NCBI GenBank assembly: GCA_001774685.1
Contig: MFAS01000001.1
Coordinates: 1,025,252 to 1,089,251 of the forward strand
From: Candidatus Collierbacteria bacterium RIFOXYD2_FULL_45_13
GTDB lineage: Bacteria > Patescibacteriota > Microgenomatia > UBA1400 > MFAQ01
Direction: 5' to 3'
Length of the DNA: 64,000 bases
Shown here piece by piece: positions 24,176-25,812 of the stretch (positions are counted from its first letter, which is position 1; each line of letters starts with the position of its first letter). A program made the position numbers and the translations under genes. The notes beneath the pieces were generated by a model that saw only the letters and a program-made list of their open reading frames with translations, was not told where the DNA came from and did not search any database.

Positions 24176-24427
24176 TTATTCCTCCAAAATCACCACATCC
24201 ACCACGTTTCCCACCACCCGAACGATACCCCTTTCACACTTAGTTTTCCATTTTTGACCAGAAACTCTACCCACAACAATCTCACCAGAGAAGATCGATA
24301 CAAAGTTAGCGTGTTCCGCCAGGATATCAAACGGACCAATTTCATTGGCCATGGAGACACTGAAACACTCAGTCTCAAGTAAGACATCGGTTTTATTTCT
24401 CACAGTTACTTTTAGTTTTTCCATCAT
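24176..24427 (-). CDS. atpC: F1-ATPase epsilon subunit, truncated (N-terminal beta-sandwich only, 83 aa)
   Basis: Position after beta, small size, and a beta-strand-rich sequence. It lacks the ~50-aa C-terminal helical hairpin of canonical epsilon. Overlaps beta by 4 nt. Confidence 0.6.
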
Positions 24428-25812
24428 TTCAGTCCTCCCACAAAGAGCATCTTTTCTTCGTCTACCCCATCATACTTCCCTGCCAGTATCTCGCTCACAT
24501 TCTCCACCACCTTTTTGAGTGGTACTTGCTCCCCTTGCAAGCCTACATGTCGTTGCGTCACCGAGAATGGCTGCGTCATGTAGTTCTTCAGCATCTTTGC
24601 CCGTTTGTAAGTAGTTCTGTTCTGTAGAGATAGCTCAGCTTCTCCCACCAGGGCGACGACCCTCTCTAGTTCCTGAGCCCGCTTAAGCAGCTCTTTGGCA
24701 GCCAAGGCCGTTTCAAAATGTTTCAGTCCGACAATCTCCGTGGTTAGTAGTGAGGATGAGCTGGCCAGCAAGTCAATTGCCGGGAATCTTCCCTCTTGAT
24801 ACACTTCTCGCGACAGAATAATAAATGAATCCAGATAGCTGTACACACTCTGTATACCACTGTCCATTAGATCATCAGCCGGCACATAAATGGCTTCTAT
24901 CGAACTCACAAAACCACTGTCTGTCGACACCAGGCTTTCGTGGAACTCGGCAATCTCCGAAGTTAGAGTCGCTTGATAGCCATCCTCAGAGGGGATATCG
25001 GCTTTTAGAGACGCCAGTTCGCTCCCAGCTTGGATAAAGCGAAAAACATTATCACAAACAAACAGTACGTTCTTACCCAGTCGGTCTCTAAAGTCCTCTA
25101 CTATCGTGGTCGCAGCATAAGCCGTCAAAAAGCGATTCACCGCGCTAGTACCCATCAGTCCAAAGATCAGAGCTACGTTTTTTAGCAAGCTCTTTTGTTT
25201 CAAATCACGATAAAGTTCATGTCCTTCACGCACACGTTCTCCGATACCTGCAAACACCACCACATTCGAGTGTTCTCCGTCTAGCGTGGTCAAATTATTT
25301 ACGATCTCAGACAGTAATACCGTTTTCCCCACACCGGCACCACCAAAAAGACCCACCTTGCCACCCTGCACCAAAGGTGCAAAGAAATCCACCGCTTTTA
25401 TTCCTGTCTCCCACAACTCTTTTTTGGTATTTACTTTGGTTAGATCCATTTTGTGGTGCTTCCACATCTCTCTCATCTGAAACTCTACTTTTCCACCGCC
25501 ATCGGCCGCATTGCCAAAGATGTCCACCACTCTTCCTAGAAGCTCCTCCCCCACCGGCACCATCAGCCTTTCCCCTGTCCCGCACACCTGCAGCCCTCTG
25601 CAAACCAGGTCATTGCCAGACATAATCATGGCCCTAATCAAGCCCGAAGGTTTGGTCTGAATTACCAGCATGCTGACCTCCACTTCTTTTTCGGACTTCA
25701 ACACTTCATGTACACTTGGGAGTGTTCCACTATCAAACTTCACCTCCACGATCTCCCCGTTGATCGCACTTACTGTCCCACAAGCCACTTTCTTTTTATT
25801 ACTATTGTGCAT
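24424..25812 (-). CDS. atpD: F1-ATPase beta (catalytic) subunit, divergent
   Basis: Walker [15 protein letters not shown], then [13 protein letters not shown] (GER.REG) and hydrophobic strand/Walker [11 protein letters not shown]. The DELSEED region is replaced by EAELSLQN. Confidence 0.85.

What the first reader, a model, noticed from the sequence alone, without database searches (positions are those of the whole stretch)
24176..25812. Divergent F1: beta lacks DELSEED and epsilon lacks the inhibitory C-terminal helices
Seen: where beta normally carries DELSEED, this protein has ...[16 protein letters not shown].... Epsilon is 83 aa, the N-terminal beta-sandwich only. Established: the epsilon C-terminal helices and beta DELSEED mediate epsilon inhibition and torque transmission in canonical F1. 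Inference: regulation and coupling of this F1 differ from ATP-synthesis-competent enzymes, consistent with an ATP-hydrolysis-driven role.
Basis: partly seen in the sequence, partly recalled or inferred. Interest (0 to 1): 0.55.

Follow-up and report, generated by a model that had tools for sequence, protein, structure and literature searches.

The report
ATP motor with ion-blind rotor
These F1 ATPase genes of a tiny uncultured bacterium (Candidatus Collierbacteria) really do lack the usual brake, and their operon suggests why: its membrane rotor protein has no ion-binding site and carries an outside-facing domain, so the enzyme probably burns ATP to do work at the cell surface and does not make ATP.

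Summary
Beta residues 392-398 (AELSLQN) align without gaps to DELSEED. Epsilon is a complete 83-aa beta-sandwich with no C-terminal helices and no frameshift. Neither feature is peculiar to this genome. All 120 closest beta homologues have a degenerate motif, and short epsilons dominate about 70 related loci in Microgenomates (CPR bacteria).

The surrounding operon is the real finding. The gene in the subunit-c position (28072-28839) encodes a signal peptide, a phage-appendage-like outer domain and a c-like hairpin. The hairpin keeps the cytoplasmic R-N-P loop but has no membrane carboxylate in any of 86 family members. No a-subunit gene was found in the 64-kb window or in any of 83 distinct loci. 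This clade also lacks b and delta. A giant tail-fibre-like surface protein is genetically linked in about 65 loci. The catalytic residues are intact.

Best reading: a derived F-type ATPase that cannot use an ion gradient and hydrolyses ATP, probably for mechanical work at the surface. It resembles mycoplasma F1-like X0 ATPases but evolved independently.

Main gap: the absence of a and of a canonical c elsewhere in the genome could not be tested.

The parts
24424..25812 (-). F1 beta-like catalytic subunit, 462 aa
   Evidence: Pfam ATP-synt_ab 1.4e-57. Best NCBIfam hit is atpD at 415.8 bits, below its cutoff of 462.85. It scores 373 bits and lower against PDB beta chains. P-loop [15 protein letters not shown], Walker B DNVFRF and YVPADD are all present.
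24619..24639 (-). DELSEED-equivalent codons, AELSLQN (beta residues 392-398)
   Evidence: Ungapped alignment to DELSEED/DELSDED in PDB beta chains. Translation checked. This is the most degenerate version among 120 homologues and about 67 locus betas.
24652..24663 (-). Beta lever motif RVVA in place of the canonical DIIA (E. coli D372-IIA)
   Evidence: Translation. R-(V/M/I)-V-(A/S) in all 120 homologues. Role of D372 taken from PMC9447477.
24176..24427 (-). Epsilon, 83 aa, N-terminal beta-sandwich only; its start overlaps the beta stop (ATGA)
   Evidence: Conserved at 82-85 aa in close relatives.
24086..24175 (-). 90-nt spacer after the epsilon stop; holds no hidden C-terminal domain
   Evidence: Stop codons in all three frames.
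25802..26641 (-). Gamma-like central shaft, 279 aa
   Evidence: Pfam ATP-synt 71.7 bits, above the gathering score of 39.9. All NCBIfam gamma models score far below their cutoffs. N- and C-terminal helices align with E. coli gamma, but the tether residues differ.
26643..28067 (-). F1 alpha-like subunit, 474 aa
   Evidence: Pfam ATP-synt_ab 1e-57. NCBIfam PRK13343 372.8 bits against a cutoff of 554. P-loop GERKTGKT and the arginine finger (SVTRVG) are present. There are only 15 residues before the beta-barrel, against 28 in E. coli.
28072..28839 (-). c-like rotor protein, 255 aa: signal peptide, a beta ectodomain of about 130 aa, and a C-terminal c-subunit-like hairpin without a carboxylate. 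It sits in the atpE (subunit c) position.
   Evidence: AlphaFold pLDDT 88.5. A profile of the hairpin hits only F-type c subunits in the PDB (E 0.02-0.18). Foldseek rmsd 1.3-2.0 A to c subunits. The canonical Glu aligns to G239. No mid-membrane Asp or Glu in 86 family members. Synteny in 78 loci.
28075..28314 (-). The c-like hairpin itself (residues 176-255), with the invariant R219-N220-P221 loop
   Evidence: Translation. Conservation.
28836..33341 (-). Giant membrane-anchored surface protein, 1501 aa, tail-fibre-like. Its stop overlaps the c-like start by 4 nt.
   Evidence: Peptidase_S74 1.1e-13. PHROG tail fibre 1.2e-35. Residues 45-250 are homologous to the giant proteins next to the ATPase operon in about 65 loci.
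23825..24085 (-). DUF378 small membrane protein, 86 aa, downstream of epsilon. Membership of the system is uncertain.
   Evidence: Pfam DUF378 6.1e-22. Same position in the closest relative (L007/L010), but found in only one further lineage.

Best explanation
The beta and epsilon genes belong to a derived F-type ATPase that is shared by many Microgenomates (CPR bacteria).

Shown:
- The operon is c-like, (b, delta,) alpha, gamma, beta, epsilon.
- The catalytic residues of alpha and beta are intact.
- Epsilon is reduced to the beta-sandwich, which in canonical enzymes joins gamma to the c-ring.
- The acidic DELSEED patch has decayed.
- The subunit-c position is occupied by a protein with a signal peptide, a phage-appendage-like ectodomain and a c-type hairpin. 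The hairpin keeps the cytoplasmic R-N-P loop but has no membrane carboxylate.
- No a-subunit gene lies nearby.
- In the clade that includes this Collierbacteria genome, b and delta are also missing.

Inferred:
- Without an ionisable rotor site and an a subunit, the enzyme cannot couple to a proton or sodium gradient. It therefore works only as an ATP hydrolase.
- The latch formed by the epsilon C-terminal helices and DELSEED, which protects synthases from wasteful hydrolysis, became useless and was lost.
- F1 most likely turns or strains gamma-epsilon against a ring of c-like subunits whose ectodomains form an external crown.
- This would deliver mechanical work to the cell surface, probably to the genetically linked giant tail-fibre-like proteins.

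The first two inferences are the core claim. The surface-work part is the most speculative.
For: - Identity and integrity of F1. All four basic catalytic residues listed in PMC3268026 are present.
- Epsilon consists of the N-terminal domain only.
- The DELSEED decay and the short epsilon are lineage-wide.
- The c-like protein: the loop motif G-I-E-A-L-G-R-N-P matches the G-x-x-x-E-x-x-A-R-Q-P of canonical c subunits. Only F-type c subunits are hit in the PDB. Foldseek gives rmsd 1.3-2.0 A. Three family members are annotated by JGI as subunit c.
- No carboxylate in 86 sequences.
- Gene order: c-like-b-delta-alpha-gamma-beta-epsilon in 68 loci and c-like-alpha-gamma-beta-epsilon in 10. The c-like gene therefore sits exactly where atpE sits.
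- No a subunit: searches with the E. coli a sequence and with an a-subunit Arg-Asn motif found nothing credible in any of 83 distinct loci with flanks of up to 10 kb. A Pfam scan of ten of the window's membrane ORFs, plus the earlier scan of genes around the operon, also found none.
- The loci without b and delta form one clade in a beta tree, so the loss is an evolutionary event and not an assembly gap.
- Family size: 237 matching stretches in species-representative genomes; 558 clusters at 50% identity with E<=1e-30.
- Linkage to giant surface proteins: about 65 loci. The c-like ectodomain also occurs inside eight of those giant proteins.
- Precedent for F1-like motors serving surface proteins: mycoplasma Type 2/3 ATPases (PMC12994834).
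Against: - The rest of the 1.09-Mb genome could not be searched, so an a subunit and a canonical c subunit encoded elsewhere are not excluded.
- The sequence evidence that the hairpin is a c subunit is individually marginal (E 0.02-0.18). Any two-helix membrane hairpin would superimpose well on a c subunit.
- Ring formation and contact with gamma-epsilon are inferred, not shown.
- Most relatives keep b and delta. A stator makes most sense if something holds it in the membrane, which is the job of subunit a in canonical enzymes. An unrecognised a-like partner may therefore exist.
- Conserved polar residues N234 and T238 in helix 2 could in principle take part in some non-canonical ion site.
- Intact catalytic residues are equally compatible with synthesis.
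- In E. coli the lever change D372V lowers torque. If that carries over, D372 to R weakens the idea of a strong mechanical motor.
- There are no expression or biochemical data.
Confidence: 0.58

Rival explanations
1. It is an ordinary reversible F1Fo ATP synthase or proton-pumping ATPase. Subunit a and a normal c subunit are encoded elsewhere in the genome. The 255-aa protein is an unrelated membrane protein that happens to be syntenic. The short epsilon and the degenerate DELSEED are neutral lineage drift.
For: The catalytic residues are fully conserved. [quoted passage not shown] The hits of the hairpin to c subunits are statistically marginal. Only 64 kb of about 1.09 Mb was visible.
Against: In 78 of 78 loci that hold both genes, the c-like gene lies immediately upstream of b or alpha, in the atpE position. 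In none of 83 loci is there an a gene or a canonical c gene within up to 10 kb. In typical bacterial operons a and c are the two genes just upstream of b (general knowledge). The cytoplasmic loop R-N-P is invariant, as expected for a gamma-epsilon docking surface. This clade also has no b or delta. Beta falls below every NCBIfam curated cutoff.
Confidence: 0.2
2. The complex is an ATPase but not a rotary surface motor. F1 is merely anchored to the membrane by the c-like protein and energises assembly, export or quality control of the giant fibre proteins. This would be analogous to the FliI/SctN ATPases of type III export, or the ectodomain would act as a chaperone of the phi29 gp12 type.
For: The ectodomain resembles the phage preneck-appendage barrel / phi29 gp12 C-terminal fragment. 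From my own knowledge, that fragment acts as an assembly auto-chaperone in phi29. The linked giant protein carries a Peptidase_S74 intramolecular chaperone domain and tail-fibre repeats. This clade has no stator.
Against: Gamma and epsilon, the rotor parts, are retained and conserved in all loci. Most relatives keep the peripheral stalk b-delta, which is only useful for resisting torque. No export-gate genes were found next to the operon.
Confidence: 0.15
3. The cluster is a decaying remnant of an ATP synthase in a reduced genome, with no function.
For: CPR genomes are reduced. Several canonical motifs have drifted: DELSEED, DIIA, LLGRMPSAVGYQPTL, and the catch loop.
Against: All reading frames are intact. 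The catalytic residues are invariant. The c-like hairpin has 15 invariant columns across 32 diverse sequences. The architecture is kept in hundreds of species-level lineages. The identical protein is on record in 48 blocks of the public assembly collection.
Confidence: 0.03

Closest known systems
Canonical bacterial F1Fo ATP synthase (atpBEFHAGDC operon)
   Same: The alpha, gamma, beta and epsilon genes are in the canonical order with intact catalytic residues. The c-like gene is in the atpE position. Most relatives also have b and delta in the canonical positions.
   Different: - No a-subunit gene nearby.
[quoted passage not shown]
- Epsilon has no C-terminal helices.
- DELSEED has decayed to AELSLQN.
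- The lever motif DIIA is RVVA.
- This clade lacks b and delta.
- All NCBIfam equivalog scores are below their cutoffs.
Mycoplasma Type 2 (G1, gliding) and Type 3 (MIB-MIP-associated) F1-like X0 ATPases
   Same: - An F1-like alpha/beta/gamma/epsilon set with no b, delta, a or canonical c.
[quoted passage not shown]
- An alpha subunit with a shortened N-terminus.
- Genetic and functional linkage to surface proteins, with ATP hydrolysis proposed to drive work across the membrane (PMC3369863; PMC12994834).
   Different: - Membership fails: MSC_0618 beta scores 356.7 against a cutoff of 570, and MMOB1670 scores 333.2 against 850. This beta scores higher on canonical atpD.
- No 12-TM protein and no small cytoplasmic protein 2 are present here.
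- Gene order differs.
- G1 beta keeps DALSEDD, and the mycoplasma epsilon-like protein has two C-terminal helices.
- The mycoplasma systems coexist with a genuine F1Fo operon, whereas here the derived operon appears to be the lineage's own F-type operon.
- This is convergent, not homologous, specialisation.
F-type enzymes whose epsilon lacks the C-terminal domain (engineered Bacillus PS3 epsilon-deltaC, PDB 8yh8; natural short epsilons in some bacteria, recalled from memory and not checked here)
   Same: Epsilon consists of the beta-sandwich only. 8yh8_H (87 aa) is the best PDB sequence match to the epsilon profile.
   Different: Those enzymes keep a normal Fo and remain ion-coupled. There the truncation removes regulation only.
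N-ATPase (alternate F1Fo, TIGR03305 / TIGR03324)
   Same: A divergent F-type operon. Beta scores 406.7 bits on the N-ATPase beta model.
   Different: The cutoff is 752, so membership fails. From my own knowledge, N-ATPases have a, a carboxylate-bearing c, and the extra AtpR/AtpQ genes. None of these is here.
Type III secretion / flagellar export ATPases (SctN/FliI with the gamma-like SctO/FliJ)
   Same: Relatives of F1 alpha/beta that only hydrolyse ATP and serve a surface apparatus.
   Different: Those are homohexamers with no alpha/beta alternation. Scores here are far lower (about 204 bits against cutoffs of 380-720), and there are no export-gate genes.

Membership tests
Canonical F1Fo ATP synthase | Alternating alpha/beta subunits with Walker A, the catalytic Glu-Arg (GERxREG), Walker B plus Arg (DNxFRF), and the alpha arginine finger | tested here: met
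   [21 protein letters not shown] and YVPADD in beta; GERKTGKT and SVTRVG in alpha. Residue roles from PMC3268026.
Canonical F1Fo ATP synthase | Scores above the curated equivalog cutoffs (atpD, atpA, gamma, epsilon) | tested here: not met
   atpD 415.8 against 462.85; atpA 337 against 484.45; gamma 45.8 against 194.45; epsilon 17.5 against 67.25.
Canonical F1Fo ATP synthase | Gamma central stalk | tested here: met
   Pfam ATP-synt 71.7 bits, above the gathering score of 39.9.
Canonical F1Fo ATP synthase | Epsilon with an N-terminal beta-sandwich plus a C-terminal helical hairpin | tested here: not met
   The beta-sandwich is present. There are no helices and no coding room for them.
Canonical F1Fo ATP synthase | Acidic DELSEED loop in beta | tested here: not met
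   AELSLQN: one of the five acidic residues is kept.
Canonical F1Fo ATP synthase | Subunit c hairpin with an essential mid-membrane Asp or Glu | tested here: not met
   A hairpin with an R-N-P loop is present, but the canonical Glu aligns to G239 (I/V/A in the family). No mid-membrane acidic residue in 86 sequences.
Canonical F1Fo ATP synthase | Subunit a with the conserved Arg, encoded in the operon | tested here: not met
Genome-wide absence is not testable with these tools.
Canonical F1Fo ATP synthase | Peripheral stalk b2-delta | tested here: not met
   Absent between the c-like gene and alpha (4-nt gap) and not detected anywhere in the 64-kb window by profiles built from the b and delta proteins of related loci. 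Present in 68 related loci. The 10 loci without it include 8 with full-length beta, and those 8 form one clade.
Mycoplasma F1-like X0 ATPase (Type 2/3) | Beta and alpha above the NCBIfam cutoffs for MSC_0618/MSC_0619 or MMOB1670/MMOB1660 | tested here: not met
   356.7 against 570; 241.3 against 520; 333.2 against 850; 342.9 against 600.
Mycoplasma F1-like X0 ATPase (Type 2/3) | Seven-gene cluster that includes a 12-TM protein and a small cytoplasmic protein | tested here: not met
   No such genes flank the operon. Cluster composition from PMC12994834.
Mycoplasma F1-like X0 ATPase (Type 2/3) | Partner protein with a signal peptide, a large domain and two C-terminal TM helices | tested here: met
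   The 255-aa c-like protein has this layout.
N-ATPase | Beta and alpha above the TIGR03305/TIGR03324 cutoffs | tested here: not met
   406.7 against 752; 315.5 against 750.5.
F-type subunit c (Pfam ATP-synt_C) | Score above the Pfam gathering threshold | tested here: not met
   15.5 bits (E 0.021) on the hairpin alone, against a gathering score of 24. A family profile hits only c subunits in the PDB, at E 0.02-0.18.

The most novel reading that the evidence does not exclude
Microgenomates have converted their only F-type ATP synthase into an ATP-driven transmembrane rotary device. F1 spins a ring of c-like subunits that cannot bind ions. The crown of phage-appendage-like ectodomains on that ring engages giant tail-fibre-like surface proteins. 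This would be a new kind of prokaryotic surface motor for attachment, motility, or handling of host cells. It would also mean that these CPR bacteria have no chemiosmotic ATP synthase at all.
Probability: 0.15. Interest if true: 0.95.

Novelty: new variant of a known kind. Interest (0 to 1): 0.7.

Why it matters
Metabolic reconstructions of CPR/Patescibacteria routinely score these genes as "F-type ATP synthase". Reviews then puzzle over why organisms without an electron transport chain keep one (PMC11665869).

If the Microgenomates enzyme has no ion-binding rotor site and no a subunit, a large group of these lineages has neither chemiosmotic ATP synthesis nor ATP-driven ion pumping by this complex, and their energy budgets need revising. 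The group is large: at least 558 protein clusters at 50% identity and 237 matches in species-representative genomes.

It would also be a second, independent case, after the mycoplasma F1-like X0 ATPases, of an F1 motor recruited to serve surface proteins. Unlike the mycoplasma case, it still carries a recognisable c-type hairpin. That makes the evolutionary route from ion-driven rotor to something else directly traceable and testable.

For the narrow finding, it supplies a natural experiment on the joint loss of the epsilon C-terminal domain and the DELSEED latch.

Tried and rejected
(1) Frameshift or split epsilon. Rejected: the spacer is 90 nt, has stops in all frames, and relatives have the same length.

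(2) DELSEED merely shifted. Rejected: the alignment is ungapped and ELS is in register.

(3) I first thought the Pi-binding Arg (E. coli beta R246) was replaced by Asp. On reading PMC3268026 I realised that R246 is the Arg of DNxFRF, which is conserved. The altered Arg belongs to the LLGRMPS segment, whose role I do not know. The claim is withdrawn and kept only as a side observation.

(4) A second ATPase at the window start (2-1174). It is Rho, and the same is true in L031.

(5) The length of the alpha N-terminus as a marker of delta loss. Uninformative: it is 14-15 residues in loci both with and without b and delta.

(6) A clade-specific replacement stator gene. None was found among conserved neighbours.

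(7) Promoter and terminator scan. Counts were no higher than in shuffled sequence.

(8) Single-sequence PDB search with epsilon: no hits. A profile was needed.

(9) The homologue search with epsilon returned only 4 proteins because of the word prefilter.

(10) Ten literature searches found no description of the c-like fusion or of a CPR c-ring.

(12) Mycoplasma Type 2/3 and N-ATPase membership. Rejected on curated score cutoffs.
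Full report
WHAT IS THERE. On the minus strand the window carries a tight gene row:
- a 1501-aa membrane-anchored protein (28836-33341);
- a 255-aa protein (28072-28839), whose start overlaps the previous stop by 4 nt;
- alpha-like, 474 aa (26643-28067);
- gamma-like, 279 aa (25802-26641);
- beta-like, 462 aa (24424-25812);
- epsilon-like, 83 aa (24176-24427);
- after a 90-nt gap, a DUF378 membrane protein (23825-24085).

The identical beta protein is recorded from Candidatus Collierbacteria bacterium RIFOXYB2_FULL_46_14 (GCA_001774675.1, contig MFAP01000001.1, 1.09 Mb). 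It is on record in 48 blocks of the public assembly collection.

THE OBSERVATION. It is correct.
- phmmer against PDB beta chains aligns [12 protein letters not shown] with ILGMDELSEEDK without any gap in the region. DELSEED therefore corresponds to AELSLQN (24619-24639).
- Epsilon matches Pfam ATP-synt_DE_N over residues 6-79, below threshold.
- A profile of 22 related epsilons hits F-type epsilon chains in the PDB (E down to 5e-7), but only their first 78 of 133-139 residues.
- The AlphaFold model is all-beta (pLDDT 81.5). It superimposes on the E. coli epsilon N-terminal domain with a query-normalised TM-score of 0.83.
- The 90 nt after the stop codon contain stops in all frames. Close relatives have epsilons of 82-85 aa. 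A frameshift is excluded.

NOT A PECULIARITY OF THIS GENOME.
- All 120 best beta homologues, 49-83% identical, carry a degenerate motif, typically E(S/A)ELS(P/A)E(N/D). The named sources are Collier-, Ames-, Woese- and Roizmanbacteria and other Patescibacteria.
- The window's version is the most degenerate, with two acidic residues in the eight-residue stretch.
- Epsilons of 81-98 aa dominate about 70 related loci.

WHAT THE TWO FEATURES MEAN.
- According to PMC9447477, the DELSEED sequence does not contact gamma and does not contribute significantly to rotation or catalysis (Hara 2000). Hara 2001 (title seen) assigns it to propagating the inhibitory effect of epsilon.
- Losing the acidic patch and the epsilon helices together is therefore the loss of one regulatory latch. 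It is not a torque defect.
- The mechanically relevant residue lies just upstream. E. coli beta D372 of the DIIA lever motif contacts gamma K9 and S12. D372V lowers ATP synthesis 100-fold and abolishes ATP-driven proton pumping, but leaves unloaded ATPase activity unchanged.
- Here the motif is RVVA (24652-24663), and it is R-(V/M/I)-V-(A/S) in all 120 homologues.
- The catch loop DDLTD is DDL(L/M)D, and the gamma tether region also differs.
- The catalytic site is intact: the P-loop Lys, GERVREG, DNVFRF and the alpha arginine finger are all present. PMC3268026 names these four basic residues as critical.
- I first mis-assigned E. coli R246 to the LLGRMPS segment and corrected this after reading that paper.

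THE SURROUNDINGS CHANGE THE PICTURE. The 255-aa protein upstream of alpha has no Pfam hit at default thresholds. Its features are:
- Its C-terminus reads GRSGKTGIEALGRNPLAAKKI..., which resembles the loop of F-type c subunits. Pfam ATP-synt_C scores E 0.021 on the last 77 residues.
- The family has at least 146 word-indexed homologues, three of which JGI labels "subunit c". It has 558 clusters at 50% identity with E<=1e-30 and 237 matches in species-representative genomes.
- AlphaFold (pLDDT 88.5) gives a signal-peptide helix, a beta domain (residues 27-155), a short helix, and a helical hairpin (182-219 and 221-254).
- A profile of the hairpin finds only F-type c subunits in the PDB (top six hits, E 0.02-0.18). 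Foldseek superimposes it on c subunits at 1.3-2.0 A.
- The structural match alone is weak evidence, because any membrane hairpin would fit. The loop motif and the operon position carry the argument.
- The canonical ion-binding Glu aligns to residue 239, which is Gly here and Ile, Val or Ala in the family. None of 86 family sequences has an acidic residue in the membrane part of helix 2. Four have a Glu next to the loop.
- R219-N220-P221 is invariant.
- The ectodomain resembles the phage preneck-appendage barrel / phi29 gp12 C-terminal fragment (BFVD E 1e-10 to 1e-11; PDB 3suc and 3gqh).

GENE ORDER IN 83 DISTINCT LOCI. I called ORFs myself and classified them with profiles seeded from the window and from two related loci.
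- 68 loci have c-like-b-delta-alpha-gamma-beta-epsilon. This is the canonical atp order minus subunit a, with the c-like gene where atpE belongs.
- 10 loci, including the window, have c-like-alpha-gamma-beta-epsilon with no b or delta.
- The eight of these with a full-length beta form a single clade in a neighbour-joining tree. The loss is therefore a real evolutionary event.
- A Pfam scan of ten of the window's membrane ORFs gave no ATP-synt_A or ATP-synt_C, and neither did the earlier scan of the genes around the operon.
- Limit: I could not search the remaining 1.03 Mb of this genome.

LINKED GENES.
- The 1501-aa protein has an N-terminal membrane anchor, tail-fibre-like repeats (PHROG E 1e-35) and a Peptidase_S74 intramolecular chaperone domain.
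- Its residues 45-250 are homologous to giant proteins that lie next to the ATPase operon in about 65 of the loci. Those usually lie divergently and often carry an N-terminal MerR-type HTH.
- Eight of these giant proteins contain a copy of the c-like ectodomain (E 1e-12 to 1e-30).

MOST LIKELY MECHANISM.
Shown:
- an intact F1 catalytic core with gamma and a minimal epsilon;
- a c-type hairpin protein without a carboxylate in the rotor-gene position;
- no a gene nearby;
- no stator genes in this clade;
- conserved linkage to giant surface proteins.

Inferred:
- The complex cannot be driven by, or build, an ion gradient through the known a/c mechanism, so it hydrolyses ATP.
- The latch between the epsilon C-terminal domain and DELSEED was lost because there is no synthase mode to protect.
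- Gamma-epsilon docks on the R-N-P loops of a c-like ring, and the ring's ectodomains form an external crown.
- ATP-driven rotation or strain is passed to the surface, probably to the fibre proteins.

I put 0.58 on the core of this: a non-ion-coupled, hydrolysis-only derived F-type ATPase. I put about 0.15 on the full surface-motor reading.

Rivals:
- a normal F1Fo with a and c encoded elsewhere (0.2);
- an anchored, non-rotary ATPase that assists fibre assembly or export (0.15);
- a decaying remnant (0.03).

COMPARISON WITH KNOWN SYSTEMS.
- It works most like the mycoplasma Type 2/3 F1-like X0 ATPases. Those have F1-like subunits, no b, delta, a or c, a partner with a signal peptide, a large domain and two C-terminal TM helices, a shortened alpha N-terminus, and linkage to surface proteins (MIB-MIP, gliding legs).
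- It is not a member of that family. The curated model scores fail, the 12-TM protein and the small cytoplasmic protein are absent, and beta is closer to canonical atpD.
- It also fails membership of canonical F1Fo, because the c carboxylate, the a subunit, the stalk, the epsilon C-terminal domain and the equivalog cutoffs are not met. It fails N-ATPase membership on cutoffs.
- It is best described as a new variant of the F-type ATPase kind that arose within the lineage's own atp operon.

LITERATURE. Ten full-text searches found nothing on this c-like fusion or on a CPR c-ring. Reviews simply list an "F-type ATP synthase" for these organisms and note the puzzle of its role without a respiratory chain. 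The library does not cover most subscription-journal papers.

VERDICT. The finding is real, but by itself it is a modest, lineage-wide trait. Its interpretation is partly right, for reasons that lie outside its coordinates. What surrounds it is unusual and apparently undescribed, and it deserves follow-up, starting with a whole-genome search for subunits a and c.

Noticed in passing
window 28072-28839 (-): The gene in the subunit-c position encodes a signal peptide, a phage-appendage-like ectodomain and a c-type hairpin with no ion-binding carboxylate. It belongs to a large unannotated family in Microgenomates.
   Followed up: yes
window 28836-33341 (-): A 1501-aa tail-fibre-like surface protein with a Peptidase_S74 domain overlaps the c-like start. 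It is homologous to giant proteins, often carrying an N-terminal MerR HTH, that lie next to the ATPase operon in about 65 related loci. Eight of those contain a copy of the c-like ectodomain.
   Followed up: partly
window 24955-25017 (-), beta residues 266-286: The segment that reads ALLGR(M/I)PSAVGYQPTL in the three PDB beta chains shown is [16 protein letters not shown] here. In all 120 homologues it is (S/T)L..(I/T)PSEDGYQ(A/P)TL, so the Arg is lost and two acidic residues are gained. The role of this segment is unknown to me. It is not the Pi-binding Arg (E. coli R246), which is conserved.
   Followed up: partly
window 24652-24663 (-): The beta lever motif DIIA, which contacts gamma, is RVVA. 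The catch loop DDLTD is DDLMD. The gamma tether R-Q is not conserved in register. This suggests a rotor-stator interface that has changed on both sides.
   Followed up: partly
window 1-64000: GC skew on the + strand is negative in 31 of 32 bins of 2 kb, although genes lie on both strands. A strand composition disparity has been reported for another Microgenomates genome (title of PMC7143001).
   Followed up: no
window 34248-36506 (-), 46827-48362 (-), 49808-50863 (+): Apparent copper or heavy-metal handling genes: a P-type ATPase with a heavy-metal binding domain, and two fusions of DsbD_2 with a cupredoxin-like domain, one of which also has an HMA domain.
   Followed up: no
window 2-1174 (-); L031 2-1372: A Rho termination factor cut off by the window edge was first picked up by my alpha profile. 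A homologue lies about 9 kb upstream of the ATPase operon in L031 as well.
   Followed up: partly
L076 689-2675: The c-like, gamma and epsilon genes are adjacent with no alpha or beta between or after them on a 5-kb contig. This is a cluster of rotor genes only.
   Followed up: no
L009 13344-14105: A second full-length c-like paralogue lies next to the MerR-giant gene, downstream of a complete c-like-...-b-delta-alpha-gamma-beta-epsilon locus. In that locus a phosphoglycerate mutase gene separates the c-like gene from b.
   Followed up: no
window 28023-28067 (-) (alpha residues 1-15) and the other loci without b/delta: Nine of the ten alpha subunits from loci without b and delta begin with the conserved motif M-I-H-S-(F/Y)-x-(F/Y)-C, and the tenth is a close variant (MMHTFEYC). 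This motif is absent from the alphas I inspected in loci that keep b and delta. It may be a new binding site.
   Followed up: no
window 23825-24085 (-): A DUF378 small membrane protein lies directly downstream of epsilon here and in the closest relative. It is not a general feature of the family.
   Followed up: partly
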